Below are positions 3,001 through 43,497 of a DNA stretch of 44,176 nucleotides, in pieces. Source of the stretch: Candidatus Iainarchaeum sp. (GTDB taxonomy: Archaea > Iainarchaeota > Iainarchaeia > Iainarchaeales > JAZDFD01). A program made the translations under genes and the position numbers. Location of the stretch: positions 1-44,176 of the forward strand of contig JAZDFD010000006.1 in NCBI GenBank assembly GCA_043808155.1. Reading direction: 5' to 3'. Each line of letters opens with the position of its first letter. Positions within the stretch are counted from its first letter, which is position 1. Under the pieces are notes generated by a model. It worked only from the letters and a program-made list of their open reading frames with translations, searched no databases and was not told the origin of the DNA.

Positions 3001-5809
3001 AACACATAACATATGTCAAGCAGGCAGCTGTGTTTCGGTAACAGGTGCTGGAACTGATGGTTGCACAACAAATACAGAGTGCGGAGGAGGAGGGACAGCT
3101 GGAGGAACTGGTGTCAATGCAGATATTCCAGAAACGCCAACGCAAAGTGCAACAGGATTTGTTGTTTTGCAAATCCCAGCAGGTACAGGTGGCCTCGGAG
3201 GAGTTGGCGGAGCAGGAATGGATTTCATGAGTGGTGCAATAAACGGAGTAATGGGCGCACTCAATAGTGACAATCCTTTCACAACTGCAATCACAATGTT
3301 TGTGATTGGAACAATTGCCTCTTACATGCAGATGGAAACTTTGGATTTAACATTTGTGGACCTTGATTTGGTTTATGTTCCGCAAATGACACCGCTTGGC
3401 GGATTAGAATTGTTTATGCCGGGAAATATACTTGGTACAGCAGAAGTTGAAGAAAAGGGAATTAACATAATTGATCTGAATGAATCATACTTTGAGTCCA
3501 ACACAGGACAAACTGCAGCAGGACCTTCAGTGGGTGCAGTATTCACACCATATGCTGCAAATTATACACCGCAAGCAGGAGATGTCACAAATCAGCAAGC
3601 TAGTACAGTTAACATGCTTGGCACAAGTATTGAAATCAAAGATATTGCATTTGATAATGATGGAGTTATACAGACAGACCCATACAAACCAGAATTCAGA
3701 ATTCTTAAAATCACTGGTGACAGATCAGAATATAAAACAGAATACAACAAGAAAATACCTGAAGAGTTAACAGTAACAGATTCAAAAGAACACACTGAAA
3801 AATTCCATTTGCAATTCAACACATTCAAACCAGAAGAAGGGGGAATTGCAGAGAAAACCAGAGCATGCAGATTAGGAAGTAAAGTTGGGGCAACAGGACC
3901 TAACGCAATTCCGAGAATTAACTTTGGATGGAACTTTAATGATATTTCAGCCGATGCATGTGATGATGTTGAATTGGGAACAGGCAATGTTAAGGATGAT
4001 TATATTTACTGTGATGCAACTCAGTTCAGTATTGATGTTCTGAAGAAAATAAATATTCTAAAAACATGGCTTGAAAACAATTCGAGTAACTTAAACTGCC
4101 CAAGTGCTGCAATTGCAGGAACAACAAAAGAACAATACTTAAATGAAAATGAATTAGATGTTGCAATAACAAAACTCGAGATGAGAAGGGATTCAACAAG
4201 CAACAATAATGTGAAGGCATTTGTTACTGTAAAAAGCAATAATACTCCTGCTTCAGATATTCCTGTGTTCGTGAATATATTTGATTCAATGACAGGGGAT
4301 CTTGCAGGTTCATGTAATACAACTGCAAAGAGTGTTGGAAGTGTTACTGCAGAATGTACAATTGAGGATTTGGAAGAAATTGAAAATACATTATATGAAG
4401 CACAGGTTGAAATTGTAACAAATAAGTTGTGCAGTGGCTGTGCAGATAATGATAACACTAACAATTTCATAAGCACAAGCTTTTCATTCTCATCAGAAAC
4501 AGGATTAGAAAAATGTGAACCATACAATACTTCAAGAATTGAAGAATTCATACAAGGAACACGTGCAAAGAATGCAGGTGCGTTAACAGATAAAGAAGTA
4601 GATATCGCTATAAGATCAGTTAAATTCAATGCACACTTAATCAAAGATGGATATACACAGGACTTCAGAGAAGACTTTGATGATTATATGATAATTAAGG
4701 GATTCTTAGCAGCAGATTCATTCTACAGAAGTACTAATAATAGTCCGGGCTTAAGAGAATTCTTTGTTGACCCAGACCATTTCAAATTCAATTATTACGG
4801 CGCACCGCACAATTCAATTGATGCAGGAAAATATTACGTGACAATTAATATTGAATTTGATGGACCAGGCTGGGACTTCTTTGATGAACAGGGAAATCCA
4901 GAAGCAATCATAACTGTCAGCATGCAGGAATTGCACGCACCAGAACCAGAAAGTCCGTTCTATTACTTACCATTTGACGGACTTATTGGAATTGATTCTG
5001 AAAACGGAAGACAGGGCTATGGTGTTAATTACATCCAGGATTCACCTGAAACATTACTGATAACTGACTCAACTAATAAACAGCCAATAATAACTACTAA
5101 TATTGCAAACTCAACACCAGCAACAGGTGCATGGGTTAATGCAAAATACGAAGATGACTTTGAAGAACTGAATAAGAACAACAGAGGTGTTGTGCTGAAC
5201 GTGAGAAAGACTGGTGATGAAACAGATATTGTATTCAGCCCAAGCTTTGCAACAGAAGTTGAGATGACAATTGATGCAAACAAACAGAGGGATGCTTACG
5301 TATTCTACACAATTTACACAGATAATGAAGCCCAAAGCAATATGTCAAATATGCTTGCATGGGACGGTGTTTCCGGCCTTGACGCAGAGAATAATGACTT
5401 CTTAGGCGGTTCAGTGCTTGAAAATTATGACTCAACTTATGATAAACACGGAATTAATGCAGAGTGCACACCCCTGGGAGGAGAAGATTTAACATCATAT
5501 GGATTTGAATGGTGCGATAGAAAGTACTCAGGTTCAATGACACTTGAAACAGTTGTATTTACTTCTCAGAAGAAAAGCAGCAACATGAAAGTAGTTGCTG
5601 CAGCTGATGACGCAAAACTGATAATTAACAATAGTACAGTGATTATTGGAAATTTAACAGGCACTGGAGATGGAAAAACAGCAATAACTTCAGTTGAAAA
5701 AGTATTAGAAATGGTGAAAGAAGATAAACTCTGTGTAATAGGAAGTGACAGCAAAGTTGAAACCCAGTTCTTCTGGAATCCTGAAAAAGTATTTGACATG
5801 ACGGGGTAA
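2..5809 (+). CDS. Giant surface/extracellular protein (5'-truncated by window), tandem Ig-like/carboxypeptidase-regulatory-like beta domains; paralog of 5846..13051
   Basis: Frame is open from base 2 (ORF track starts at an internal TTG at 98). Acidic, beta-rich, Cys pairs. Shares motifs ALYANTYE, YIYCDATQFSI, KDGYxQDFREDF, NGRQGYGVNY and FxWNP with the next ORF. Confidence 0.85.
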   Translation, partial: TSEVYDVPANASRTIHAILEPEIISGDVEIEFLGLYTDSGEIAAVLASSSEYIAKFKLRVPKNSDYDTIGAHIRSGTHSMMELDKFFIKKVNASGDSFVIQSTSYNPPAGYDLDNQHITSGDAKWASIQWDSFNTGITEFSVRLEVKENASEGDDIKLYYRGYGVTSDDKFKRDPYDSELQERENIPGKKHALYANTYEDIKQVGEETLCTEKFCYSANILDKDNDIVSTVEDSYSTKIFNDYVLRFTILNNSLFETDTYPNAQIRVINSEEAIKLTKYTFYDVGSQPHSGSVNSSETEWVNLGDLEPNNTISGVVNFTPIKVFSSPLIIQIKSLQRIIYEKSININTVATNEFEITTEPELLPSGVDNELKVTVFNKEDGLEVENADVKIKDRFLTEVARGNTNEIGIALINITPQKPGEKLKIVVDKPNYQTLEQEISVNDVVIELSPESVGLGLNVKTKLEDETDFTIKNLTEMDLTIKKIEIDGDFKGLLDDVKMQNWLYVYEDDKVLAEDSFDVIVKGFLSNLGTRITESETLNATINVEVSAFDEVWEFEIPLTVSIGIGDEVDDPSCFTITQREWTTSTEGKPVETEFEIKNNCTVEQTPVVLNNLRAKVMWESNNLGMFELRTPNYNRELRGGYSRIIAAEMGPEETINVVLTFTPNSGIDGEARATIVFEADNPTDSKKQTVSAELTATIASVNLLECVVVDPKVIYVNPEQTGKFTIETSGCGSETDIIIDSELGVNTENFTITGDDSKEIEVYAERNIPGQYPIYIYAKGEGSVTDKIIDTVKVRIASSGCLALSRYEFDIYDENPDDTFSGYDTVSIINRCYDKQVDITVDTKDWGAAMEDGLKLGLAGLVLGALKNPDYFKDMFDGGGNDGTPQNEGNRDTQNAGTISIGNCSTAQDCADQFGNGDCTQYECYDGHCGCVSPEETPICRNGKLEGSEECEANYTESCPEINSDYVGGTATCNMQDCTWNTLECIYPSGGNGDETPPATHNICQAGSCVSVTGAGTDGCTTNTECGGGGTAGGTGVNADIPETPTQSATGFVVLQIPAGTGGLGGVGGAGMDFMSGAINGVMGALNSDNPFTTAITMFVIGTIASYMQMETLDLTFVDLDLVYVPQMTPLGGLELFMPGNILGTAEVEEKGINIIDLNESYFESNTGQTAAGPSVGAVFTPYAANYTPQAGDVTNQQASTVNMLGTSIEIKDIAFDNDGVIQTDPYKPEFRILKITGDRSEYKTEYNKKIPEELTVTDSKEHTEKFHLQFNTFKPEEGGIAEKTRACRLGSKVGATGPNAIPRINFGWNFNDISADACDDVELGTGNVKDDYIYCDATQFSIDVLKKINILKTWLENNSSNLNCPSAAIAGTTKEQYLNENELDVAITKLEMRRDSTSNNNVKAFVTVKSNNTPASDIPVFVNIFDSMTGDLAGSCNTTAKSVGSVTAECTIEDLEEIENTLYEAQVEIVTNKLCSGCADNDNTNNFISTSFSFSSETGLEKCEPYNTSRIEEFIQGTRAKNAGALTDKEVDIAIRSVKFNAHLIKDGYTQDFREDFDDYMIIKGFLAADSFYRSTNNSPGLREFFVDPDHFKFNYYGAPHNSIDAGKYYVTINIEFDGPGWDFFDEQGNPEAIITVSMQELHAPEPESPFYYLPFDGLIGIDSENGRQGYGVNYIQDSPETLLITDSTNKQPIITTNIANSTPATGAWVNAKYEDDFEELNKNNRGVVLNVRKTGDETDIVFSPSFATEVEMTIDANKQRDAYVFYTIYTDNEAQSNMSNMLAWDGVSGLDAENNDFLGGSVLENYDSTYDKHGINAECTPLGGEDLTSYGFEWCDRKYSGSMTLETVVFTSQKKSSNMKVVAAADDAKLIINNSTVIIGNLTGTGDGKTAITSVEKVLEMVKEDKLCVIGSDSKVETQFFWNPEKVFDMTG

Positions 5810-5845: not shown

Positions 5846-8800
5846 ATGGGAATAGGACAGAACATAAAAGATTTGTATTTCTCACTAGAAGAGAAGTATT
5901 ACGGTGTTTTAGATAAGATTGACACAAAAATTCCGATTTATAAAGTCATAAATCCAATTGACAAAGTTTTCCCTTCATTTGTTCTTGTTATTATTCTTTT
6001 TTTAGCATTGATTCTGGGGATCATATTAATGATGATTCCGCCAATGGGAGTGCAGCAATTCACTGATGTTACTTTCAGGATTGAAAACAATTCAGGAAAC
6101 AGACTAAGCGGATTGGAAGTTTATTACAATTATGGAATAGAAGGAACCACTGTAACAACAAACAATGAAGGTGAATTTACAATAGTTCAAATTCCGCTAG
6201 ATTCAATTCTTGAAATTAATATTGTAGCTGGTGTTGTGAATGGGAAAGAATACAACGGAGTTGAGAAAAGTTATACTGTTGATGAATATTTCTCAGGAGA
6301 TACAATAATTCTTTTAGAAAAAAGCACTGGTCCGACAAAAGTTGATATTTACATTACTGACATGTCAGGTAATAGGATAATTGGAAAAAACATTGAAGTT
6401 CTGCTTTCATGTGAAAATAGTTATGTTGTACCTGTACCAAGTATTGTAAGAGACACCGACAATGACGGGAAAATTAGTGTGGATGTTCCACAGAACTGCG
6501 GAACAATGCGGGCAACAATTTCTGCAACAGGTTATATTACTGAAATGTTCGTGCTTTTATCAGCGAGCAGAACAGTTAAATTGAGTGCAAAGGAACCATC
6601 AAAAGGTTCTTTGAAAGTGCGTGTAAGAGATGACTCAGGAATTTTAGTAGAGGATGCTGATTTTGTAATTACATTATATGATTCAGCAGACATTTATGTT
6701 AATTCAAAACACACTCTGGATTACGGAGAAGTTACATTCACTGAGTTGATGCCGGGAACTTATTCTGTTATAGGATATGATACTGACTCACGGTATTCAA
6801 CAGATTCGGAAGACGATATTTACATTGGTTCAGGAAGCACGGAAGAAGTTACATTAGTTGTAACTGGAGGGCCAAGTGGCGGATTTATTGGACCTGATGG
6901 TAAATGGCACGAATCAATTGGAATATTAGAAGTTGAAGTTATTGATAATTTAAATGGAGAAAGAATCAAAAACGCAAATGTTGAACTTAGACTAACTGAA
7001 ACAGATGTACTTATTGAGGAAAGAAATACAGGTGATGACGGAGAAATTGTTAAGTTCCCAATTACAGAGGATTTAGGATTTACATTAGTTGCTTCACATG
7101 AAAATTATCATTATGAGATTGTTGAGGTTAGTGATTTAAATAAACTAGTAGTCATTGAGCTTGAGAAAATCACTCCTGAAAATTCAGGAATTGTGAAAAT
7201 ACATGTGATTGACGAAGATGATATCGCTGTTGAAAATGCAAAAGTAGTTCTGAGATTTTTAGACAATGGCACGTTAGCACCATACAATTACAAAGTAACT
7301 GACAACAACGGATTTGTTGAATTTAAAGGTGTTAAACCAGGTTCATACTATGCTTATGCAACCAAATATCATTCATACGGAGACAATATTGAAGACGGCA
7401 AAGAAATTGATGTAAAAGAAATTACGGAATTCACTGTGCGTATTGAAATCGGAGATACTGATTTTTCAATTACTGCACATGATGAAGACTTTGAATTAGT
7501 AGAGGATACTGAAGCAGAATTCTTTACAGTATTCGGGGAAAGTCTGGGCGTGATTCCATTAAGTGACGGAACAGGAACTCACAAACTGAAATCAGACAAG
7601 GAAGTTTATGTTGTTATAAGTCACGATGATTACATTGATGTGCAGACTCTGACGTATGACTTGTGGCCTGATACAGTAATTGATATTGATGCAACATTAA
7701 AACCCACGTATTACGGAAATCCAAAAATTAAATTATTGGGGGTTTTCTTTGATGACTTTGCAGTTGAAATGCTGGAAGCAGGTCAGATTTATGAGGTTGT
7801 ATTTGAAGTTACGATTCCTGAAAATGCAGATTATGATGAATTTGGAATTCATTTAAGAGCAGGGGATGATGAACCATTTGAAAACACACCAGTAGTGATA
7901 AAACGTGCAAATACCCCAAATGCAGTTATAATCAAGGGAACAAAATATACTCCCCCAAACGGTTATGCAATTGACCATGCACCTGAAAATATGGTTGATG
8001 AAAAAGATGATGGAAAATGGATTAATATCATTAATGAAAATCCAAAAAGCAGAGTTTACACTTATTCAGTAAAAATTAAAGTAAAACCTGAAATTCAGGA
8101 ATATACAGATATGGTTTTGCATTACAGGGCATGGTTTAAGGATGGCGACAGATACATCAGAGACCCGACTGATGATGTTTTGGGAGAGAATGCAAATGTT
8201 AAAGAGAAACAGGCATTATACGCAAACACATATGAGAAACTTTATTCTGAAGGAAGACCTCCGCTTTGTGAGCAGGAATTCTGTTATGGGAATGAAGAAG
8301 TTTTGGATTTGGAAACAGATGAGCTCTATCTCATAGAACCATATCTCTTGAAGATTTATGCGGAATATGAATTAGGATTTGATTTGACAAATGATTCTGA
8401 TACGGTTTATGAAAATGCAGAACTTTACATTTTAGCAATGGAAGATGGAATTGGAAGTGATGTTCTTGAAATTAAAGGATATGAATTTACAAATGCAGAC
8501 ACAATGAAATTCTCAGAATCAGGAATTGCTTTGAACAGCATTGAAAAACTTCCTTTGGGGGAGTTTATAAAAGGAAAAACAGTTTCAATGAAAAGTCTGG
8601 TGTTTGAACCTAAATCCCTGGGAAGTTCTGAATTTGAAGTGAGAATTATTTCCGGAGGAAAAATAATCTATTCACACCTGATAAAATTTTCAGTTGTTAG
8701 TAATCAAACAATGATAATTAGATTAGAACCTGAAGTTATTCCTGCATACATACCAAATCAGTTCATAATTACAGTAACTGCAGAGGAAAATGAACTTCCA

Positions 8801-11800
8801 ATCGAAGGTGCATACATTACACTTACTAAAACAAATCCTAATCACGTAGATGGAGATTCATTTGAAGCAGAAACAAATGAACGGGGAATTGCAGTTATAC
8901 TTGATCAGGAGTTATCTGACCCCGGAACTAAAATAAAGGTTGAAGCTCAGAAATTGGGATATTGGGCAGAACCAGTTACAGCAGAAATAAGTGAAGACAT
9001 TATTTCAATTGAACCAGAAGAAGTTTCAGCATCTGTTACGCCTGATGATGGTCCGACATATGTTGATTTTTCATTTGAGAATAAAGTCGGCATTGATTTG
9101 AAATTTTCAGAACTTTCACTTACAGGAAATGATGAATTTGGTTATTTCTTAGAGTTAGAAGGAATGAAATATTATCTGGAAAAGTGGACTGTTAATGATT
9201 TCATTACTGCAATGGAAACTGATACATTTGATTCTTTCCTGAAAATACAGTTCAGAGACAGCAGTCTGAATGACCTGAAGAAAACTGAAAATGCGAAAGG
9301 CATACTAACAATTACTTTTACAAAGAAGGGAGTAGGAGGACCATGGACTTTTGAGGTTCCAGTAAATGTTACTATTTCACCTGCGGGAATGCCTGATAAT
9401 GAGGGCTGTCTGCAGATTGTCGGTCCTAAAACATGGGATACATTTACTGAAGGCAGCGAAGCTAAAATGGACTTCGAAATAGAAAATCATTGCATAAGAA
9501 ACACAAAAGATATTGAGCTGGATAATATTCAGGCAATGGTTAAATGGAAAGGTTCACGCATGGGTTACGTTGAACTTACTATTGAGGGAAATTCAAATGT
9601 TTTAGTAGATAATACATGGACAAGAGCTTACGGAACTATTGAAGGTGGAGACTCACTCAATGCCTTATTGAGATTCATACCAAATGAGGGCTTTGAGGGT
9701 GAAACTGCACAATTTACTGTTTTCATTGACAGTGCTTTTGGAATGGGTGCATCTGATGAAAAAGAAATGATAAACAATAAAGCAGAATTTATTGAATCAA
9801 CTGTGACAATTGCGAATTTGGAGACATGCATTAAATATCTGGATAAGAGCGAGCAAGAATTTACAAAATTGGTTATTGCAAAGGATGATTCTGATGGGGC
9901 AGTTGAATTTAAAATTAATATTGAGGAATGCGGAGCAACAGATGTAAAATTTATTCTTTGCAAAGGAGATTCACATTGTAACGGCGGGGCAGAAGGGGGA
10001 ATTGAATTAACTCCGAATGAAAATCAGATGTTTACAGTAACTTCAGACTATCCAAACAGTGAATACATAACAGTTGAAAGAGAAAGCATTCCTGGAATGT
10101 ATGGTATTCCAGTTTATGCAACAACTCCGGGTGGAACAACAAGAAAAGTTGCATTAATTGATGTTGAAGTCGAACCTGAAACAGGAGAATATTTCAGATT
10201 AGATAAATATGAATTAAATTTAAGTGAGAAGGGAGATTATGAAGCTGTTGATTTGGTTAATGAAATGTATATTGAAAACGTAACTGTCCACGCAAACTAC
10301 TGCAGCTGGAAAGAAGCCGCAAATAACGATAAAACAATGGACTGGATTTTGAAGGGTGCGTCTATTGGCGCAGTATTTGGTAGTTCTGCAGCAATAATAA
10401 CTGCAATGGGTATTGGTGCATGGGCAGGTCCAGTCGGGATTCTCCTCGGTGGACTAATAGGCTTGCTTTTTTCATTGTTCGGATGCCACGGATGTGAATG
10501 CAAATACAAGCAAGGCACACTAAATGATTATGTGATAAATTTATCAGGTGGGGATAATGAAATTGCTAAATTTTTAGACAGTGATCTAATAGATGATTTT
10601 AACATAAGTTGGTCTACAGGAAATCCAAAATACGGATCCGAACCAGAACATGCAAGTGAAACTGTTGCTTTGGTAATTGAAAAAACATCAGATTATGAAG
10701 ATGTTAAGCCAACTTATACAACAATGCAGGTTAGTGCAAAAGAACACATACACAAAGATGAAACACATGCAATTGAAAATCCAGAAGAAGGAAGCGCGGA
10801 TGTTTACTGTCGTAATGGTAACTTTGGAGCTTTGAATATTGGCGAAAGTGCAGAGGAAGGTTCTTGTGATGATATAAGCGAAAAAACGCATACACAAAAA
10901 TTCCATATGAAAATTAATACAAGTCAATATGAAGAAATAGTTGCGCCACCTACAAATGCGCAGAAATGTTCACAGGGAACACTGAAGGGTTATACTGGTG
11001 CAAATGCATTACCAAAAACAGAATTGAATTGGAGCTGGAATCTTAATGCAGATGCATGTGATTACAAAGAAGCAGGTAATGAAAATTACATTTACTGTGA
11101 TGCAACTCAGTTTAGTATTGCATTTACAAAGAAAATGATGCAGTTAGAAGAGTTCTTAGCACACAATGGGCAATTCAGCTGCCCCCAAAACTGGATGATG
11201 ATAGGCCTACAAAACTCACTTGGAGATGAAAATGATAAGACACGTAGAAGATCTGTAACAAAAGACAAAATAGGTCTTGAAGAAATAACTGAAACAATAA
11301 ACGGAAACACTGTTGATTTTATAATTAAAGTAACAAATAAAACATCTGCTCAGCAGACTGCAACTGTTACACTGACAGTAAATGATCAAGGCGGGGGCGA
11401 TAAATTCAGTAGAACATGTGAAAAGGGAATCACTCTTGAAAAAGGTAAAAGCGGAGAAGTTTATTGTAACATTCCAAATGTCCCAGAAACAGAAAAAATG
11501 TATATTGCATATGCAAATATTGATTCTGAAACAACAGATAATGTTGAAAATACAGAAGAGGGACATTTATTAGGAATTTCATTTATAATATGGCCTGAAC
11601 AGAACGAATGCTTTGTTGCAAAAACAACAATTCCATTTGACGGAACTCCGACAATTGAATATTTCATAAATAAAAATAATCCAAAATACGGACAGTACGT
11701 AATTCAGGAAAGTGTGCAATGGAGAGATTTCAGTGTTGAGGGTTCGCAATGGGAGACTGTTCAGACAAATAGTCAAGGAACGGAAGATATTCAAGGAATG

Positions 11801-13051
11801 GACGATGTTATTAACTGGCTGAGAAGTGTGACTCAGTTTAAGGCATATTTAATGAAAGACGGATATAGTCAGGATTTCAGAGAAGACTTTGTTGAATACT
11901 ACACGCTTAATTCATTTATGGATGCACCAGCTGATTTCCATATAAGGTCTGGAGGAAACTGGGCGGATTACTTTGAAGATAATGAAAAACTGGAGATTAT
12001 GAGAAAAAACATAAACAATGGGAGTGGGAAATATACTTTGCAAAGTCCAGGGCTTTATGAAATTGATGTTGAGATTGACTTCGGAGATGACTGGACATTC
12101 TTTGAAAATGGACAACCAAAAGCAGATATTGACTTAATAATGCACAATATTGCAAAACCTTCGAGAGCGAGTCCGTTCTACAGCTTGCCATTGAATGGTA
12201 ATGTGGGATTAGATTCAGATAATGGACGGCAAGGATATGGTGTTAATTATGAAAATGCGAATGATGTGATTTCAATTGCAAGCGCAGGTTCTGGGAATGA
12301 ACTTATTTCAACAAGCGAAATTGAAAATCCAAATGCATTAGTAACTGTTAATACTGAAGTTAATGATAATTTCAAAACAATAAACAGTATTCCTGCAACA
12401 AGAGGGATTTTACTTTCATTAAATGAAAATAATCTTACATTTTCACCTAATTATGCAACACCTGTTCTTATGAAAGTGCACAGTGAAGTTACAAATAATC
12501 CATTCAGCGCAATTTATATTGTGAAGGAAAATGAAACTCCAAAAGATGTCGGAAGTATAATGACTTACTGGAACGGCGAAGGTCAGTGCCTTGACTTTTC
12601 GGGGGATTCTGTTTCAACTGCATTCAGAAACAGAGCTGACAGTGAAACAAACGCAGAAGATATTGTGGATATGTGGGAAGATGCGTATAAAATCTCATGG
12701 GTGAACGGAGTGGAAATTAAGGGGGATGTTTATCTGAAAAGTGTGTTCTATACACCTATTTCCAATGTCTATGAACTAACTGAAATCGGAGAAACAGATG
12801 TTTCATTTATCTCCCCAAACGGAGGACCAAACCCCACAATAGCACTTAGAGGGATTAGCGGAACTGCAAACAATGACCAGTCAGGAAATCAGAATGTGAG
12901 CTCAATTGCAGAACTATTTACAATGGTGAGCAATGAGGAAGTCTGCATTACAAACGATGATGGCATTGAAACTAAATTCTGGTGGAATCCAATACATATT
13001 GGCGAAGTAGAAGGCTATGCAAACGCAGGTATTACCTGTGTTCAGAATTAA
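5846..13051 (+). CDS. Giant (2401 aa) N-terminally membrane-anchored surface protein with tandem Ig-like domains
   Basis: N-terminal TM helix (FVLVIILFLALILGIILMM), repeated VENAKV/T-x-x-x-G beta-sandwich motifs, internal Gly-rich hydrophobic hairpin. Confidence 0.9.
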   Translation: MGIGQNIKDLYFSLEEKYYGVLDKIDTKIPIYKVINPIDKVFPSFVLVIILFLALILGIILMMIPPMGVQQFTDVTFRIENNSGNRLSGLEVYYNYGIEGTTVTTNNEGEFTIVQIPLDSILEINIVAGVVNGKEYNGVEKSYTVDEYFSGDTIILLEKSTGPTKVDIYITDMSGNRIIGKNIEVLLSCENSYVVPVPSIVRDTDNDGKISVDVPQNCGTMRATISATGYITEMFVLLSASRTVKLSAKEPSKGSLKVRVRDDSGILVEDADFVITLYDSADIYVNSKHTLDYGEVTFTELMPGTYSVIGYDTDSRYSTDSEDDIYIGSGSTEEVTLVVTGGPSGGFIGPDGKWHESIGILEVEVIDNLNGERIKNANVELRLTETDVLIEERNTGDDGEIVKFPITEDLGFTLVASHENYHYEIVEVSDLNKLVVIELEKITPENSGIVKIHVIDEDDIAVENAKVVLRFLDNGTLAPYNYKVTDNNGFVEFKGVKPGSYYAYATKYHSYGDNIEDGKEIDVKEITEFTVRIEIGDTDFSITAHDEDFELVEDTEAEFFTVFGESLGVIPLSDGTGTHKLKSDKEVYVVISHDDYIDVQTLTYDLWPDTVIDIDATLKPTYYGNPKIKLLGVFFDDFAVEMLEAGQIYEVVFEVTIPENADYDEFGIHLRAGDDEPFENTPVVIKRANTPNAVIIKGTKYTPPNGYAIDHAPENMVDEKDDGKWINIINENPKSRVYTYSVKIKVKPEIQEYTDMVLHYRAWFKDGDRYIRDPTDDVLGENANVKEKQALYANTYEKLYSEGRPPLCEQEFCYGNEEVLDLETDELYLIEPYLLKIYAEYELGFDLTNDSDTVYENAELYILAMEDGIGSDVLEIKGYEFTNADTMKFSESGIALNSIEKLPLGEFIKGKTVSMKSLVFEPKSLGSSEFEVRIISGGKIIYSHLIKFSVVSNQTMIIRLEPEVIPAYIPNQFIITVTAEENELPIEGAYITLTKTNPNHVDGDSFEAETNERGIAVILDQELSDPGTKIKVEAQKLGYWAEPVTAEISEDIISIEPEEVSASVTPDDGPTYVDFSFENKVGIDLKFSELSLTGNDEFGYFLELEGMKYYLEKWTVNDFITAMETDTFDSFLKIQFRDSSLNDLKKTENAKGILTITFTKKGVGGPWTFEVPVNVTISPAGMPDNEGCLQIVGPKTWDTFTEGSEAKMDFEIENHCIRNTKDIELDNIQAMVKWKGSRMGYVELTIEGNSNVLVDNTWTRAYGTIEGGDSLNALLRFIPNEGFEGETAQFTVFIDSAFGMGASDEKEMINNKAEFIESTVTIANLETCIKYLDKSEQEFTKLVIAKDDSDGAVEFKINIEECGATDVKFILCKGDSHCNGGAEGGIELTPNENQMFTVTSDYPNSEYITVERESIPGMYGIPVYATTPGGTTRKVALIDVEVEPETGEYFRLDKYELNLSEKGDYEAVDLVNEMYIENVTVHANYCSWKEAANNDKTMDWILKGASIGAVFGSSAAIITAMGIGAWAGPVGILLGGLIGLLFSLFGCHGCECKYKQGTLNDYVINLSGGDNEIAKFLDSDLIDDFNISWSTGNPKYGSEPEHASETVALVIEKTSDYEDVKPTYTTMQVSAKEHIHKDETHAIENPEEGSADVYCRNGNFGALNIGESAEEGSCDDISEKTHTQKFHMKINTSQYEEIVAPPTNAQKCSQGTLKGYTGANALPKTELNWSWNLNADACDYKEAGNENYIYCDATQFSIAFTKKMMQLEEFLAHNGQFSCPQNWMMIGLQNSLGDENDKTRRRSVTKDKIGLEEITETINGNTVDFIIKVTNKTSAQQTATVTLTVNDQGGGDKFSRTCEKGITLEKGKSGEVYCNIPNVPETEKMYIAYANIDSETTDNVENTEEGHLLGISFIIWPEQNECFVAKTTIPFDGTPTIEYFINKNNPKYGQYVIQESVQWRDFSVEGSQWETVQTNSQGTEDIQGMDDVINWLRSVTQFKAYLMKDGYSQDFREDFVEYYTLNSFMDAPADFHIRSGGNWADYFEDNEKLEIMRKNINNGSGKYTLQSPGLYEIDVEIDFGDDWTFFENGQPKADIDLIMHNIAKPSRASPFYSLPLNGNVGLDSDNGRQGYGVNYENANDVISIASAGSGNELISTSEIENPNALVTVNTEVNDNFKTINSIPATRGILLSLNENNLTFSPNYATPVLMKVHSEVTNNPFSAIYIVKENETPKDVGSIMTYWNGEGQCLDFSGDSVSTAFRNRADSETNAEDIVDMWEDAYKISWVNGVEIKGDVYLKSVFYTPISNVYELTEIGETDVSFISPNGGPNPTIALRGISGTANNDQSGNQNVSSIAELFTMVSNEEVCITNDDGIETKFWWNPIHIGEVEGYANAGITCVQN

Positions 13052-22390: not shown

Positions 22391-23368
22391 ATGCTGGGAG
22401 AGTTTGACTTATTAGATTTGCATAATAGTGACGATATTGTACTTCGGAGATGTATTCGCGCATATACTATTATTCCAAAATATGTGAAAAATCCAACTGA
22501 AAAGAATTTCAAGGCGCAGAAAATTGTTAAGATTTTAAGACAAATAAATTCTAAGCTTAGAAAAGAAATTGGGCTGAGTTGGAAAGATCAATGGATTGAT
22601 AAATTACCTTTTGAAATGAAACGAACAAGTCCAAAAGAATGGTTTTTAGGAAGGGCTTCAATACCCTTAATTGCAATAACTAAACTAAATGAATTTGGTT
22701 GTGAAACAGAAGTTGAAGAAATCAAAAAACATCTAGATTATTTGTGTAGCACAACAGGTACTGTTGCAAAAAGTCCTAAAAAAGTTTCAAAAGAACTTGC
22801 TTGGTTTGTTGCAACAATACTTTGTGATGGGCATATGACAAAAAATGAAAGTAGACTTAGTTTTAGCTTAAGCGATAAACAATTAATTAAAAAAATTGGC
22901 GGGGTTTTTAACAAACTTTTTGAACTTGAAGGTCGGACTGTCAAAATCAAAGATAAACCGCAGTGTGTAAAACCACAATATGGATTGGATGGTAACAACA
23001 AAATTATTATTCGTTTTCTAAATAAATTTTGTGAGATTCCCGTGGGTAAAAAATGCGATATTATACTTGTGCCCGAAATAATTAAACAAGCACCACCAGA
23101 AATCAAAAGAGCATTTTTAAAAGGAGTTTTTGATACCGACGGAGGAAAACGGAGTGGTGGTCTAGGTTTAACAAGTGCATCAAAAAAATTCAGGGATCAA
23201 AACCTTGAGCTTCTTAAAGAATTCGGTATTAAATCTTACAAAGACGAATGGATCAATAAGCTATATAATAAAAAGTATTATGGTCTCAAATTTAAAATAG
23301 ACTCAAATTCAGAATTTTTATGCAGGCGTCGGATAGTGGCAATTCCGTCAGGTTTAGGGGAGTATTAA
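22391..23368 (+). CDS. Free-standing two-motif LAGLIDADG homing endonuclease-family protein
   Basis: LAWFVATILCDG and AFLKGVFDTDGG motifs; 3' end reads into tRNA-Leu. Confidence 0.85.
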   Translation: MLGEFDLLDLHNSDDIVLRRCIRAYTIIPKYVKNPTEKNFKAQKIVKILRQINSKLRKEIGLSWKDQWIDKLPFEMKRTSPKEWFLGRASIPLIAITKLNEFGCETEVEEIKKHLDYLCSTTGTVAKSPKKVSKELAWFVATILCDGHMTKNESRLSFSLSDKQLIKKIGGVFNKLFELEGRTVKIKDKPQCVKPQYGLDGNNKIIIRFLNKFCEIPVGKKCDIILVPEIIKQAPPEIKRAFLKGVFDTDGGKRSGGLGLTSASKKFRDQNLELLKEFGIKSYKDEWINKLYNKKYYGLKFKIDSNSEFLCRRRIVAIPSGLGEY

Positions 23369-23440
23369 GTCGTTTTTGATTTTTATTCTGAAACACCTGA
23401 TCCCTTAGTGGGTTCGCAGGTTCGAGTCCTGCCGCCTGCA
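23322..23440 (+). tRNA. tRNA-Leu(TAG) with 36-nt canonical 37/38 intron (23359..23394)
   Basis: GCAGGCG/CGCCTGC acceptor stem, long variable arm. BHB: TTTA/TGAA helix, bulges GG|G and AC|A. Confidence 0.92.
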
Positions 23441-39332: not shown

Positions 39333-39404
39333 GCCCTTGTAGCTCAGTGGTAGAGCACCTGCCTTGTAAGCAGGGGGTCGGGGGTTCAAGTCCCCCCAAG
39401 GGCT
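39333..39404 (+). tRNA. tRNA-Thr(TGT)
   Basis: GCCCTTG/CAAGGGC, anticodon arm CCTGC-CTTGTAA-GCAGG. Confidence 0.96.
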
Positions 39405-40296
39405 ATTCAAATAGTTCAGTACTCAAATATTTCTCTCCGCGGTCGGGAAGCAGTACTACTATTGTGCCTTTTTTAATTTCAGTTGCTTTTTTGAGTGCAA
39501 CAAACATTGCAGCGCCTGAACTCATACCTGCAAAAATACCTTCTTTTTTTGCGAGTAAACGTGATGTTTCAAAGGCATCTGAATCAGAAACTTTTACAAA
39601 TTCATCAATTTTTGAAGCATTATAAATTTCAGGAATTATTGCTTCTTCGAGACTTTTTAGACCTTGTATTTTGTGACTGAGAAAAGGTTCTGCTGCAACA
39701 ATTTGAATTCTTTTATCAAATGATTTTAATGCGTGAGACATACCCATCAAAGTTCCTGAAGTACCCAAACCTGCGACAAAAAAAGAAATGCGCCCTTTAG
39801 TTTCAGAAATTATTTCATTTGCAGTATAATAGTAATGTGAAAGAGGATTATTAATATTAGAATATTGATCCGGAACGAAGTATTTTTCAGGGAATTTTTC
39901 ATACAATTCTTTTACTTTTAAAATTGCACCATCTGTGCCATGTGATTCAGGAGTTAAAATTACTTTTGCTCCGAATGCTTTCAGAATTTTTCTTCGTTCA
40001 ATGCTTACTGATTCGGGGAGTGCTAATTCAATCGAATATCCTTTTATCGCAGCAACCATTGCCAAGCCAATACCTGTGTTTCCGGATGTTGCTTCCAGAA
40101 TTGTTTTTTCTTGTGTCAGTTTTCCTGAAAGTTCTGCTTCAGTAACCATCTGAAGTGCAATTCTGTCTTTTACGCTTCCACCTGGATTCTGCCCTTCTAG
40201 TTTTGCAAAAATTTTCACTTCTTTGTTTGAATTTAATCGATTTATTCTCACAAGAGGTGTATTTCCAATTGTTTCAAGAACGCTGTTGAAAATCAT
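39403..40296 (-). CDS. cysK: Cysteine synthase (PLP-dependent, CysK/CysM family)
   Basis: IGNTPLV, NPGGSVKDR, EATSGNTG, GLGTSGT, PDRGEKYLST. Start ATG 40296 or GTG 40305. Confidence 0.93.
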   Translation of the reverse strand: MIFNSVLETIGNTPLVRINRLNSNKEVKIFAKLEGQNPGGSVKDRIALQMVTEAELSGKLTQEKTILEATSGNTGIGLAMVAAIKGYSIELALPESVSIERRKILKAFGAKVILTPESHGTDGAILKVKELYEKFPEKYFVPDQYSNINNPLSHYYYTANEIISETKGRISFFVAGLGTSGTLMGMSHALKSFDKRIQIVAAEPFLSHKIQGLKSLEEAIIPEIYNASKIDEFVKVSDSDAFETSRLLAKKEGIFAGMSSGAAMFVALKKATEIKKGTIVVLLPDRGEKYLSTELFE

Positions 40297-40297
40297 T

Positions 40298-40514
40298 TTA
40301 ATCACTGTTCACTTTGTAATATATTTTCCGCAAATCATCAAAATCTGAAAATCTCATAATCAGACCGAAGTTAATTAAATTTGAAAGAGAATATCGTACT
40401 GTTCGTGCAGATATTAAAGTTGAATTAGAAATTTCGTTTTGTGAAAGCGGACCTCGCAGTTTTAACTCTATTAAAATCAGTTCAGAACTTCGTGCAAAGT
40501 CGATCCCTTCTCAT
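40298..40514 (-). CDS. MarR-like winged-helix regulator interrupted by a +1 frameshift at codon 6/7 (programmed frameshift or pseudogene)
   Basis: 0 frame: MRRDRLCTKF*. +1 frame from CTT-T: ARSSELILIELKLRGPLSQNEISNSTLISARTVRYSLSNL...DLRKIYYKV. Not in ORF track. Confidence 0.7.
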
Positions 40515-40667
40515 AAAACCACTTTAATATTTATGCAGGGAATATTAATAAATCTTTAGATAGTGGCAATTATTTTGTTTAAAATCACATAATATTTCGA
40601 GAAATAGACTGCATAATGTTAAATACCTGGAGTTTGTAATCATAACATAAAACAAGGAGTTGAGATA

Positions 40668-40773: not shown

Positions 40774-40998
40774 TTATTTCTTTTTTAGAAGTACTTTAAG
40801 ATGTGCTAATTTTCTATTTGCTATTGCGAGTCTTTCACTATTTCCAGTTCGCTCAGCAAATTGCAATTCAGCCTGTGCAAGAAGAAATTCTTGTTTTAAT
40901 TCCGCAGAAGATTTAGAATCGAAATGTGAAAAATCATGTTTTTTTTCAGCTTCTTTGCTAGCATCTCACCCAGTAAATCGTTTCCATTTTTTAGGCAT
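40774..40998 (-). pseudogene. Small orphan ORF with an in-frame TGA at codon 11
   Basis: AGGTGA SD; MPKKWKRFTG*DASKEAEKK...LKVLLKKK. Confidence 0.45.
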
Positions 40999-42867: not shown

Positions 42868-42930
42868 AACGTAATTTACTGAATGGAAAAATATATTAAT
42901 TGCCAGAGAGTTTCTTTTGCAGGTGATATT

Positions 42931-43497
42931 ATGTTTGGTTTTTTAAAAGGAAAAATAGATGTCAAACTGAATAAATCAAATTTCAGGCCTGGCGATATGA
43001 TTCAAGGAACAGTTACCTTGGATTTGAAAAAGTCTACAAACGCACGCGGAGTATTTGTTAAATTTTACGGAATGAGTAAAACAACACAGCATTCCGGAGG
43101 CGTGAATTTACAGCCTGGTAGCGGAGTCAGGATAAGTTCAGGCGGTTTTTCAATTGGTTCCGGAAGTTCAAGGAGTAGTGTAGGTTCCAGTTCAAGAAGG
43201 AGCAGTGTAAGTCATTCTTCACAAAGTGAAACAATTACTGTTTATGAATTTGAACAGTTAGTAGAAGGCGAAAAAGAATATGCTGATGGTCCTCAAAGTT
43301 ATGATTTCCAGATACAAATTCCGAGTGATTTATTAGATCAGAATCAGGCACCTAACGAAATGATTGGTGCAATAGTTCAAACAGCTAAATTCCTGTCAGG
43401 GAGTGTAACAAACGTAAAATGGTATATTAATGCAAAACTTGATGTTCCCGGCGGATTTGATTTATCAAAACAGATTCAGATCAATATCACCAAATAG
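42931..43497 (+). CDS. Arrestin-like/SpoOM-type beta-sandwich protein
   Basis: F.PGD.IQG.V, YDFQIQIP, W...AKLDVP; AGGTGA SD before ATG 42931. Confidence 0.65.
   Translation: MFGFLKGKIDVKLNKSNFRPGDMIQGTVTLDLKKSTNARGVFVKFYGMSKTTQHSGGVNLQPGSGVRISSGGFSIGSGSSRSSVGSSSRRSSVSHSSQSETITVYEFEQLVEGEKEYADGPQSYDFQIQIPSDLLDQNQAPNEMIGAIVQTAKFLSGSVTNVKWYINAKLDVPGGFDLSKQIQINITK

What the first reader, a model, noticed from the sequence alone, without database searches (positions are those of the whole stretch)
40298..40514. Candidate cysteine-sensing +1 ribosomal frameshift upstream of cysteine synthase
Seen (- strand): ATG AGA AGG GAT CGA CTT TGC ACG AAG TTC TGA. The 0 frame stops after 10 codons. Slipping +1 at CTT-T gives a complete 71-aa wHTH regulator whose TAA lies 1 nt before the cysteine synthase ATG. 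The codon after CTT is TGC (Cys), and an SD-like AGAAGGGATC sits just upstream. Established: prfB uses an internal SD, CUU-U slippage and a slow A-site codon for +1 shifting. Inference: low Cys-tRNA stalls the ribosome at UGC and promotes the shift, producing the regulator and coupling translation into cysteine synthase. Caveat: a single-T indel (sequencing error or pseudogene) gives the same picture, and a nearby ORF (40774) also has a lesion.
Basis: partly seen in the sequence, partly recalled or inferred. Interest (0 to 1): 0.85.

Follow-up and report, generated by a model that had tools for sequence, protein, structure and literature searches.

The report
Conserved cysteine-codon frameshift site, archaeal regulator
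A tiny DNA-binding regulator next to the cysteine synthase gene of a small archaeon can only be read in full if the ribosome slips one base forward at a leucine-cysteine codon pair, and the same break is kept in related genomes, so it may be a built-in sensor of cysteine supply.

Summary
On the minus strand, ATG 40514 opens a 10-codon frame that reads CTT-TGC and stops at 40482. The 65 remaining codons of a winged-helix (HTH_24) protein lie in the +1 frame and end 1 nt before the cysteine synthase ATG.

It is not a sequencing error or a pseudogene. All 10 loci of this gene clade (9 genomes, 3 families, 8 genera of one archaeal order) keep an ATG-led frame, CTT-TGY, and the regulator in +1. CTTTG is the longest invariant string in the locus alignment. 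One genome has TGT, which keeps Cys but changes the +1 residue. The codon-substitution pattern switches frame at the site. The gene sits beside cysteine synthase, tRNA-Cys or CysRS.

Best reading (about 45%): a programmed +1 frameshift (peptidyl-tRNA-Leu slips from CUU to UUU) made more likely when Cys-tRNA is short. Nothing shows the shift itself.

Main rival (about 30%): a cysteine-codon leader ORF plus separate initiation. Eight of the 10 loci have GTG or ATG in the regulator frame; the window has ATC. A distant relative (G213) keeps the leader but has the regulator in the -1 frame.

If the best reading holds, it would be the first cellular +1 frameshift in Archaea and the first natural hungry-codon sensor.

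The parts
40545..40552 (-). TATA-like box (TTTATTAA) of the regulator/cysteine synthase unit, about 38 nt before the ATG. It aligns with the TTTAAA of relatives.
   Evidence: Alignment of 10 loci and upstream strings. Promoter function is inferred from archaeal promoter geometry (recalled knowledge) and was not tested.
40518..40523 (-). SD-like AGTGGT, 3 nt before the 0-frame ATG.
   Evidence: One search gives the sequence. In one search, GTGAT + 3 nt + start is the dominant SD spacing in this genome (64 of 119 GTGAT occurrences upstream of 907 long ORFs). One search gives the 16S 3' end.
40482..40514 (-). 0-frame short ORF: ATG, 10 codons (MRRDRLCTKF), TGA.
   Evidence: An ATG-led equivalent is present in 10 of 10 clade loci.
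40502..40507 (-). Internal SD-like GGGATC; the GGGAT part lies 3 nt upstream of CTT.
   Evidence: Columns G-8, G-6 and A-5 are invariant in 10 loci, while the encoded residue varies (R, S or G).
40494..40499 (-). Proposed shift site CTT-TGC: CUU in the P site, the Cys codon in the A site, and a slip to UUU.
   Evidence: CTTTG is invariant in 10 of 10 loci and is the longest invariant run (5) in the 294-column alignment. TGC occurs in 9 loci and TGT in 1.
40298..40495 (-). +1-frame body of the winged-helix regulator, from GCA at 40495 (65 codons) to TAA 40300-40298.
   Evidence: (HTH_24; alignments; synonymous/nonsynonymous 162/149 in this frame against 18/295 in frame 0).
39403..40296 (-). Cysteine synthase (CysK/CysM type). 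Its ATG lies 1 nt after the regulator's stop, with AGTGAT 4 nt upstream.
   Evidence: PALP, E 1e-66; TIGR01136, 370.7 bits, above the cut-off.

Best explanation
The locus encodes a 71-aa stand-alone winged-helix regulator whose full-length synthesis needs a programmed +1 ribosomal frameshift.

Proposed mechanism. Ribosomes start at ATG 40514, which has an SD-like AGTGGT 3 nt upstream; in the f20 relatives the mRNA is probably leaderless. They read five codons and arrive with CUU in the P site and the cysteine codon UGC in the A site. The internal SD-like G[G/T]GA[T/G], 3 nt upstream of CUU, can pair with the 16S tail in the same register as in an initiation complex.

- If charged Cys-tRNA is plentiful, UGC is read and the ribosome terminates a few codons later. 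Only a 9-18 aa peptide is made.
- If Cys-tRNA is scarce, the A site stays empty. Peptidyl-tRNA-Leu(GAG) re-pairs from CUU to UUU, GCA (Ala) is read next, and the regulator is completed.

The regulator's stop abuts or overlaps the cysteine synthase start. The shift could therefore also feed ribosomes into cysteine synthase by translational coupling.

What is shown: the sequence architecture, its conservation, the frame switch in the substitution pattern, and the genomic link to cysteine genes.

What is inferred: that the ribosome shifts, that Cys-tRNA supply sets the rate, what the regulator binds and in which direction it acts, and the coupling.
For: 1. All 10 clade loci have ATG...CTT-TGY in one frame and the wHTH in +1. 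They come from 9 genomes: G000 (family f1), G059 (f27), and G019, G101, G103, G104, G111, G112 and G120 (two copies) in f20. Protein identity to the window's copy is only 36-49%.

2. CTTTG is the longest invariant run in the locus alignment: 5 columns, next longest 3, with 49 invariant of 294 columns.

3. G103 has TGT. This keeps Cys in frame 0 but changes the +1 residue from Ala to Val.

4. Frame signature, from pairwise codon differences in the 8 f20 loci:
- In the 12 nt before CTT: 14 synonymous / 53 nonsynonymous in frame 0, against 0/61 in +1.
- In the 60 nt after the site: 162/149 in +1, against 18/295 in frame 0.
- The variable columns upstream are -1, -4 and -7, which are the third positions of frame 0.

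5. The window (ATC) and G059 (ATT) have no canonical start in the wHTH frame. The possible starts elsewhere sit at two different codon positions: GTG at -8 in 6 loci, ATG at -5 in 2. The window's state is the mutational intermediate between those two, so a canonical internal start looks dispensable.

6. The internal SD-like nucleotides G-8, G-6 and A-5 are invariant, although the residue encoded there varies among R, S and G. The genome uses SD of this type.

7. Link to cysteine metabolism:
- Cysteine synthase lies directly downstream in 6 of 10 loci.
- tRNA-Cys lies directly downstream in 3 loci, and after cysteine synthase in G019.
- In G213 the order is tRNA-Cys, then CysRS.

8. The genome has one tRNA-Leu(GAG) and one tRNA-Cys(GCA).

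9. The regulator has only an Lrp/AsnC-like or Lrs14-like HTH and no ligand domain. A translational input would supply the missing sensor.

10. The 2016 review PMC5009743 (passages read) states that no example is known of hungry-codon frameshifting that makes a starvation-specific trans-frame protein.
Against: 1. Eight of 10 loci have GTG or ATG in the wHTH frame 1-2 codons before TTT, and gene callers use them (VSAF.., MDF..). In those genomes the regulator could be made without a shift.

2. G213 (another order) keeps a similar leader (MAKNRSLLC, then a stop), but its wHTH lies in the -1 frame and the +1 frame is closed. This suggests the leader can work without a +1 shift.

3. P0017, a close relative of the G059 protein, starts MWLQWKGIHFALS. 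That is an in-frame ATG further upstream with no break. Its DNA could not be fetched.

4. In-frame CTT-TGY is not specifically avoided in the window's genome. There are 72 observed against 105 expected in 914 long ORFs, but the same NNT-TGY deficit holds for nearly all codon families. One long ORF (C15 9892-10401) carries the full motif in frame.

5. The SD-like element is at the normal initiation spacing of this genome, not at the shortened spacing that acts in prfB.

6. No conserved 3' RNA structure was found (-1.75 kcal/mol).

7. There is no direct evidence of any kind.
Confidence: 0.45

Rival explanations
1. Cysteine-codon leader ORF plus independent initiation. The short ATG ORF (..Leu-Cys..stop) is a regulatory upstream ORF. 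The regulator is started separately in its own frame, at GTG or ATG in most genomes and at ATC or ATT in the window and G059. Ribosomes pausing at the Cys codon when Cys-tRNA is short would cover or uncover that start 6-9 nt upstream. Cysteine supply would then still control the regulator, but without a frameshift.
For: - GTG (6 loci) or ATG (2 loci) is present in the wHTH frame in 8 of 10 loci, and gene callers use them.
- G213 keeps the leader MAKNRSLLC-stop with the wHTH in the -1 frame and a possible own GTG 27 nt after the leader stop.
- If both Leu-Cys (frame 0) and Phe-Ala (+1) were selected, CTTTG would be forced by dual coding. This is my own reasoning.
Against: - The window and G059 have only ATC or ATT at that place.
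- The putative starts sit at two different codon positions and none has an SD in register.
- No codon difference among the 8 f20 loci in the 12 nt before CTT is synonymous in the +1 frame (0 of 61).
- Classical leader peptides carry several regulatory codons and alternative RNA hairpins. Here there is one Cys codon and no conserved structure.
- The f20 promoters place the 0-frame ATG at about the predicted transcript start. That would favour it as the only efficient start (inference).
Confidence: 0.3
2. A real +1 frameshift that is constitutive. The site sets a fixed low ratio of regulator to short peptide, or corrects an old indel, and cysteine supply plays no role.
For: The architecture and conservation are the same as for the best explanation. 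CTT-T with an upstream SD-like element could shift at some basal rate.
Against: The A-site codon is Cys in 10 of 10 loci, including the TGT variant. The gene is tied to cysteine synthase, tRNA-Cys and CysRS. That would be an unexplained coincidence if any slow codon would do.
Confidence: 0.12
3. In-frame TGA readthrough. In the window the wHTH frame has GTG-GTT-TTA-TGA just upstream, and in G059 it has ATG-TGG-TGG-CAA-TGA. The regulator would start there and read through TGA.
For: P0017 has Trp where G059 has TGA. Both TGAs overlap the 0-frame ATG.
Against: - TGA is an ordinary stop in the window's genome: 291 of 914 long ORFs end in it, and the frames after them are no longer than after TAA or TAG.
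- The f20 loci have no start codon upstream in that frame.
- The GTG in the window has no SD.
Confidence: 0.03
4. Sequencing or assembly error, or a decaying pseudogene.
For: A single extra T in a T3 run would give the same picture in one genome.
Against: - The break is present in 10 of 10 loci from 9 independently assembled genomes.
- A public contig of a roughly 90% identical relative crosses the site without a gap.
- The +1 frame shows purifying selection and no stops.
Confidence: 0.02

Closest known systems
prfB (release factor 2) autoregulatory +1 frameshift of bacteria (CUU-UGA-C with an internal SD). Recalled from established knowledge; mentioned in general terms in PMC5009743 and PMC8211752.
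   Same: It has the same P-site codon and slip (CUU to UUU), and an A-site codon that starts with UG and is slow when its decoder is scarce. It also has an SD-like element 3 nt upstream, a short 0-frame product and the full protein in +1. The logic is the same: the site senses the factor that reads the A-site codon.
   Different: - The A site holds a sense codon (Cys) rather than a stop, so the decoder would be Cys-tRNA and not a release factor.
- The host is archaeal.
- The shift is at codon 6-8, not 26.
- The SD-like element pairs in the normal initiation register of this genome, not at a compressed spacing.
- The product is a DNA-binding regulator, not the sensed factor itself.
Yeast Ty1 / ABP140 / EST3 +1 frameshift sites (CUU-AGG-C). 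Ty1 passage read in PMC5009743.
   Same: The P-site codon is CUU, with a +1 slip while a slowly decoded sense codon waits in the A site.
   Different: In yeast the slow codon is slow because its tRNA is permanently rare, so the rate is largely fixed. Here the codon matches the amino acid whose synthesis genes lie next door, which suggests a variable, sensed rate. Cys codons are not rare in this genome (13.5 per 1000 codons).
Bacterial leader-peptide attenuation (trp, his, leu and similar) and T-box control of cysteine genes. Recalled knowledge.
   Same: A short ORF upstream of amino-acid genes whose translation reports the charging level of the cognate tRNA.
   Different: There are no tandem regulatory codons and no alternative terminator/antiterminator hairpins. 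The output here would be a change of reading frame or start-site access. I recall no counterpart in Archaea.
fucA1 of Saccharolobus solfataricus, programmed -1 frameshift (PMC8211752 abstract and passages; PMC1616953 listing only).
   Same: A cellular archaeal gene split into two overlapping frames and expressed by recoding.
   Different: That case is a -1 shift on an A-AAA-AAT heptamer in an enzyme gene with no known sensing role. This one would be +1 on CUU-U in a regulator, linked to cysteine.
Lrp/AsnC (FFRP) and Lrs14 archaeal regulators, such as PDB 2e7w, 9w4v and 6cmv.
   Same: The HTH_24-type winged helix is alike (E 5e-6 to 3e-3 with the profile of alignment A2).
   Different: These proteins have only 65-72 residues, with no RAM or ligand domain and no dimerisation helix of MarR type. 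The nearest sequence relatives outside the clade are the 88-98 aa haloarchaeal 'NP_1176A family' regulators.

Membership tests
prfB-type programmed +1 frameshift | Slippery P-site codon CUU followed by U, allowing re-pairing on UUU | tested here: met
   CTTT is invariant in 10 of 10 loci. tRNA-Leu(GAG) is present in the genome.
prfB-type programmed +1 frameshift | A-site UGA stop codon read by the factor that is being regulated | tested here: not met
   The A-site codon is UGC or UGU (Cys), a sense codon. Archaea have no RF2 (recalled).
prfB-type programmed +1 frameshift | Internal Shine-Dalgarno 3 nt upstream of CUU, at a spacing shorter than for initiation | tested here: inconclusive
   G[G/T]GA[T/G] lies 3 nt upstream in 10 of 10 loci. 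However, GTGAT + 3 nt is the normal initiation spacing in this genome (64 of 119), so the spacing is not compressed.
prfB-type programmed +1 frameshift | A trans-frame protein is actually made | not testable with these tools
   No RNA holder was listed. No proteomic or ribosome data are on hand.
Hungry-codon (aa-tRNA limited) +1 frameshifting | Shift rate rises when the A-site aminoacyl-tRNA is limiting | not testable with these tools
   Support is indirect only: Cys codon in 10 of 10 loci, a single tRNA-Cys gene, and neighbouring cysteine genes.
Leader-peptide attenuation | Several tandem codons for the sensed amino acid in a short ORF | tested here: not met
   The main-clade leaders have one Cys codon each.
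Leader-peptide attenuation | Mutually exclusive RNA hairpins downstream of the leader | tested here: not met
   RNAalifold on 10 loci gives -1.75 kcal/mol and 8 weak pairs. The mini hairpin I proposed forms fully in only 6 of 10 loci.
Pfam HTH_24 winged helix (Lrp/AsnC-type HTH) | Score above the gathering threshold | tested here: met
   22.3 bits against a cut-off of 21.9 for P0001, which is marginal. Relatives carry PF13412 and PF12802. The PDB profile hits Lrp/AsnC and Lrs14 regulators.
Cysteine synthase CysK/CysM (TIGR01136) | Score above the curated cut-off | tested here: met
   370.7 bits against 344.15. The scores lie below the equivalog cut-offs of cysK and cysM, so the subtype and substrate (O-acetylserine or O-phosphoserine) are open.

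The most novel reading that the evidence does not exclude
This is a translational amino-acid sensor built from a frameshift site. The level of charged tRNA-Cys is read directly at a CUU-UGY site, and the +1 shift produces a ligand-domain-less transcription factor and perhaps feeds ribosomes into cysteine synthase.

It would be the first cellular +1 programmed frameshift in Archaea and the first natural 'hungry codon' switch. It may also be one member of a wider class. A sister subfamily (G002, G050) is also frame-broken in the +1 sense and sits next to tRNA-Tyr.
Probability: 0.4. Interest if true: 0.92.

Novelty: new variant of a known kind. Interest (0 to 1): 0.85.

Why it matters
Programmed frameshifts that act as sensors are few: RF2 senses release factor and antizyme senses polyamines. 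The 2016 reference review states that no natural case is known in which hungry-codon frameshifting makes a starvation-specific trans-frame protein (PMC5009743, passage read). In Archaea only one frameshift, a -1 case, has been demonstrated (PMC8211752, abstract and passages).

A conserved CUU-UGY site tied to cysteine synthase, tRNA-Cys and CysRS would show three things:
- how very small archaeal genomes can regulate amino-acid supply without a ligand-binding regulator;
- a missing archaeal counterpart to bacterial attenuation and T-box control;
- a compact, portable part (about 20 nt) for reading out tRNA charging.

If the rival leader-ORF model is right instead, it would still be a tRNA-charging-linked translational control of a kind that I do not recall for Archaea and that none of my three searches turned up.

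There is also a practical point for annotation. Gene callers either miss this gene (as in the window) or start it at an internal GTG or ATG.

Tried and rejected
Sequencing error or pseudogene. Rejected on conservation in 10 of 10 loci, on the 0-gap contig, and on the selection pattern.

TGA as a sense codon. Rejected: 291 of 914 long ORFs end in TGA, with normal downstream frames.

Specific avoidance of in-frame CTT-TGY. Not found. The deficit (72 against 105) is shared by almost all NNT-TGY pairs. The full motif RGKGADNNNCTTTGY occurs 4 times in the genome. One of these is in frame in a long ORF.

Conserved 3' stimulatory RNA structure. None found. A 5-bp hairpin G[C/A]CTT / AAG[G/T]C around the site forms fully in only 6 of 10 loci, with one covarying pair (3 AU, 3 CG). 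It did not beat the shuffles clearly: the covariation score was reached in 54 of 500.

Unusual tRNA with a four-base anticodon. ARAGORN listed 35 ordinary tRNAs and nothing odd. This was not a dedicated search.

Loss of Trm5 (m1G37) as a cause of slippage. Trm5 is present.

More DNA-level examples. The metagenome scan gave one locus (L047), almost identical to G103. Class and phylum searches cover the same 215 genomes and added only G213. The other profile hits there are NAD kinase-wHTH fusions.

Sequencing runs. No RNA holder was listed. No run held more than 12% of the sampled words.

The neighbouring 'lesion' ORF. It has an in-frame TGA, no Pfam family, and no match in the other 195 genomes of the order. 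It was left as an orphan.

Transcriptional slippage on T3. Rejected on general knowledge that much longer homopolymers are needed (recalled).

Literature. Three searches found no report of this site, no cellular archaeal +1 frameshift, and no DPANN frameshifting apart from an IS982 paper (listing only). Supplements were not consulted.

Full report
1. THE OBSERVATION

On the minus strand, ATG at 40514-40512 opens ATGAGAAGGGATCGACTTTGCACGAAGTTCTGA, which reads MRRDRLCTKF and stops at 40484-40482. The +1 frame is open from 40510 to TAA 40300-40298 and encodes P0001 (70 aa). P0001 matches Pfam HTH_24 at 22.3 bits against a cut-off of 21.9.

That frame has no ATG, GTG or TTG until its last 19 codons. 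The stop is followed by one base and then ATG 40296 of a 297-aa protein that passes NCBIfam TIGR01136 (cysteine synthase CysK/M; 370.7 bits, cut-off 344). A +1 slip at CTT-T would give a 71-aa product (6 + 65 residues).

2. THE ORGANISM

The window is contig C6 of a 1.08-Mb, 35-contig genome that is 88% complete and 35% G+C. It has archaeal rRNA and an intron-sized tRNA-Lys. Its phylum holds only 215 species genomes in the collection. NCBI labels one family member as coming from a 'Candidatus Diapherotrites archaeon' MAG, so this is probably a DPANN archaeon.

TGA is a normal stop: 291 of 914 long ORFs end in it. The genome has one tRNA-Cys(GCA) and one tRNA-Leu(GAG), a CysRS and Trm5.

3. THE BREAK IS CONSERVED

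Searches of 196 genomes of the order and 215 of the class/phylum found a tight clade of this small protein. It occupies 10 loci in 9 genomes:
- G000 (family f1)
- G059 (f27)
- G019, G101, G103, G104, G111, G112 and G120 with two copies (f20, six genera)

Identity to the window's protein is 36-49%. In all 10 loci an ATG-led frame runs for 5 or 7 codons and then reads CTT-TGY, and the wHTH lies in the +1 frame. The 15-nt sites are:

| Locus | Site |
|---|---|
| G000 | AGGGATCGACTTTGC |
| G059 | GGGGATTCACTTTGC |
| G019 | AGTGAGCGCCTTTGC |
| G103 | AGTGAGCGCCTTTGT |
| G104 | AGTGAACGCCTTTGC |
| G101, G120a, G120b | AGTGAGCGACTTTGC |
| G111, G112 | AGGGATGGACTTTGC |

The 0-frame peptides are MRRDRLCTKF, MKGDSLCLIGKS, MAARSERLCQGQ, MAERSERLCQGQ, MAARSERLC, MAEKSERLC, MAARRDGLCQVQ, MAVRRDGLCQVQ, MQSERLCQQQ and MQSERLCQQQQAYSKRFG.

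CTTTG is the longest invariant run in a 294-column alignment of promoter, leader and gene: 5 columns, with the next longest 3 and 49 invariant columns in all. G103 has TGT. That keeps Cys in frame 0 but changes the +1 residue from Ala to Val. A metagenome contig (L047) is nearly identical to G103 and is not counted as independent.

A 151-nt public contig from a lake-water metagenome lies on 40372-40518 with 14 differences and no gap. Ten of the 14 are listed and all lie at or below 40478. The other four were not shown, so I cannot say whether CTT-TGC itself is unchanged in that relative.

Together these results rule out a sequencing error or a decaying pseudogene.

4. THE CODING FRAME SWITCHES AT THE SITE

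Pairwise codon differences among the 8 f20 loci:

| Region | Frame 0 (syn/nonsyn) | Frame +1 (syn/nonsyn) |
|---|---|---|
| 12 nt before CTT | 14 / 53 | 0 / 61 |
| 60 nt after the site | 18 / 295 | 162 / 149 |

The variable columns upstream are -1, -4 and -7, which are the third positions of frame 0. The pairs are not phylogenetically independent and the upstream stretch is short. The direction is nevertheless clear: frame 0 is the constrained frame up to CTT, and +1 is constrained after it.

5. START SITES

The genome uses SD sequences complementary to its 16S tail, GGATCACCTCCT. GTGAT followed by 3 nt and the start codon is the sharp peak: 64 of 119 occurrences upstream of 907 long ORFs. GGAGG peaks at 7 nt.

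The 0-frame ATG of the window has AGTGGT + 3 nt. In six f20 loci, TTTAAA begins 29-30 nt before the ATG. By usual archaeal promoter geometry (recalled) that predicts a leaderless mRNA starting at that ATG. In G000, G059 and G120 the box is 37-38 nt away, which predicts an 8-10 nt leader carrying the SD-like GTG[G/A]. None of this is measured.

In the wHTH frame there is GTG at columns -8..-6 in six loci and ATG at -5..-3 in two. The window has ATC and G059 has ATT. None of these has an SD in register.

The window's AGGGATCGA lies between the f20 forms AGTGAGCGA and AGGGATGGA. It differs from the first at two positions and from the second at one, and it has neither start. Two of the three families are in the no-start state. 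A canonical internal start therefore looks dispensable.

6. THE INTERNAL SD-LIKE ELEMENT

G at -8, G at -6 and A at -5 are invariant. The codon at -9..-7 encodes Arg, Ser or Gly, which points to selection on the RNA rather than on the peptide. The element G[G/T]GA[T/G] + 3 nt + CTT has the same spacing as SD-to-start in this genome. It would hold CUU in the P site.

This differs from prfB, where (recalled) the spacing is shorter than for initiation.

7. THE LINK TO CYSTEINE

- Cysteine synthase follows the regulator directly in 6 of 10 loci: G000, G059, G019, G101, G111 and G120a. The stop and start overlap or abut: ATGA in G059 and G101, a 1-nt gap in G000, and a TTG start inside the regulator's tail in G019, G111 and G120a.
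- In G103, G104 and G112 the synthase is deleted except for its first few codons, and tRNA-Cys follows directly. In G019 tRNA-Cys follows the synthase.
- For G120b, only about 200 nt follow the gene in the locus I held, and they hold neither cysteine synthase nor a tRNA.
- ARAGORN was run on 9 loci. L023, L025 and L027 were not scanned.
- In G213 (another order, E 3e-15) the order is regulator, tRNA-Cys, CysRS (TIGR00435, 425.7 bits).
- In the window's own genome, tRNA-Cys sits on contig C24 next to the ThiI-like gene that is the divergent neighbour of the regulator in relatives. The window keeps a roughly 11-nt remnant of that neighbour's start region (40559-40569). The regulator-synthase pair has therefore moved.

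8. EVIDENCE AGAINST A FRAMESHIFT

- Eight of 10 loci could start the regulator at GTG or ATG, and gene callers do so.
- G213 keeps a similar leader (ATGGCTAAAAATAGGAGTTTACTCTGTTAG, MAKNRSLLC), but the regulator is in the -1 frame and +1 is closed. Only an unorthodox +2 re-pairing (CUC to the overlapping CUG) or a separate GTG start could serve there.
- P0017, close to the G059 protein, begins MWLQWKGIHFALS with no break.
- CTT-TGY in frame is not specifically avoided, and one ordinary ORF carries the whole motif.
- No 3' structure is conserved.
- No RNA, ribosome or protein data exist.

9. WEIGHING THE MODELS

One model explains all 10 loci, including the two without any canonical start: a +1 shift at CUU-UGY. 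The leader-ORF model explains 8 of 10 plus G213, but it needs AUC or AUU initiation without an SD in two families. It also does not explain why the nucleotides, rather than the residues, of the SD-like element are fixed.

| Model | Weight |
|---|---|
| Cysteine-responsive +1 frameshift | about 0.45 |
| Leader ORF with separate initiation | 0.30 |
| Constitutive frameshift | 0.12 |
| TGA readthrough | 0.03 |
| Error or pseudogene | 0.02 |
| Unassigned | the rest |

I consider it likely, about 0.8, that the Leu-Cys codon pair is a cysteine-related translational control element of some kind.

10. WHAT IS KNOWN

- The 2021 review of archaeal recoding (PMC8211752; abstract and passages read) lists one demonstrated frameshift in Archaea, fucA1 at -1. 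It mentions +1 only as a suggestion for a haloarchaeal virus.
- Atkins et al. 2016 (PMC5009743; passages read) describe hungry-codon frameshifting and Ty1 CUU-AGG-C. They state that no examples are known of trans-frame proteins specific for starvation made this way.
- Searches for DPANN plus ribosomal frameshifting and for frameshifting, sensor, cysteine and related terms found nothing relevant.

11. VERDICT

The feature is real and conserved, and it is clearly tied to cysteine metabolism. It is best filed as a new variant of autoregulatory +1 frameshifting. Simple reporter and mass-spectrometry tests would decide it.

Noticed in passing
L019 (G002) about 1501-1707 minus-oriented; L020 (G050) 670-876: A sister subfamily of the small wHTH (35-36% identical to the window's copy) is also frame-broken. 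An ATG-led ORF (MNDDKRCWV.. / MSDKWCWV..) lies in the frame that needs +1 to enter the wHTH frame, and that frame has no canonical start for a full-length protein. Both genes are followed by tRNA-Tyr(GTA). The shift site could not be pinned down. Candidates are GTT-TAC in G050, CCC-TAT in G002, and a shared AAA-AAC.
   Followed up: partly
L017, L022, L024, L026, L027, L055: 3' end of the wHTH gene: Six of the eight f20 loci (G019, G103, G104, G112, G120a, G120b) carry a second copy of the motif at the regulator's 3' end. It reads GGTGA[T/G] + 3 nt + CTT-TGT (..LCL.. tail). G111 has a degenerate form (TTT in place of CTT and no GGTGA), and G101 lacks it. The motif overlaps the SD and the TTG start of cysteine synthase (MSDSVLNAIGNTPL..). 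A +1 shift there would end in Leu-Val-stop right at that start codon in five of the six loci (not in G104). The motif is kept even where the synthase is deleted.
   Followed up: partly
L054 (G213): A distant homolog in another order has the leader MAKNRSLLC-stop, with the wHTH in the -1 frame. It is followed by tRNA-Cys and a CysRS gene. Relative to f20 there are 4 extra bases between CT[T/C]-T and the Ala codon.
   Followed up: partly
L022, L024, L026 (G112, G103, G104): Cysteine synthase is cleanly deleted, leaving its first 7-10 codons. This joins the regulator directly to the sequence that precedes tRNA-Cys. The same junction sequence occurs in three genera.
   Followed up: no
window 40559-40569 and genome contig C24 24634-25758: The window keeps a short remnant (TTGCCACTATC) of the start region of the ThiI/THUMP-like gene that is the divergent neighbour in relatives. 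The intact ThiI-like gene, tRNA-Cys and a uL16-like gene sit together on contig C24. The regulator-synthase pair was therefore relocated in this genome.
   Followed up: partly
window 40774-40998 (-): This is an ORF with a good SD (AGGTGAT + 5 nt), starting MPKKWKRFTG. It has an in-frame TGA at 40968-40966, followed by 62 more open codons. It has no Pfam family and no match in the other 195 genomes of the order. There is no evidence that it is a gene.
   Followed up: yes
window 2-5809 and 5846-13051 (+): There are two very long ORFs, 1935 aa (open at the 5' end) and 2401 aa. This is typical of the giant surface proteins of small episymbiotic archaea. They were not examined.
   Followed up: no
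window 42883-43497 (+): A 204-aa protein matches Pfam Arrestin_N (34.9 bits, above the cut-off) and weakly matches Arrestin_C. That is unusual for an archaeon.
   Followed up: no
L058, L060-L063 (G014, G024, G212, G027, G045): The next-best profile hits in the phylum are 338-386 aa open frames. By eye (recalled motifs) they look like NAD kinase with a C-terminal wHTH of this type (..LPPSARF..). No family search was run on them.
   Followed up: no
alignment A4, columns 29-33 with 44-48: A possible 5-bp hairpin has CTT in its stem and the Cys codon in its 4-nt loop. It forms fully in 6 of 10 loci. One pair covaries (CG in G019, G103 and G104; AU in G101, G111 and G112). It does not form in the window.
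   Followed up: yes
window 23348-23440 (+): tRNA-Lys(TTT) is 93 nt long, which suggests an intron.
   Followed up: no
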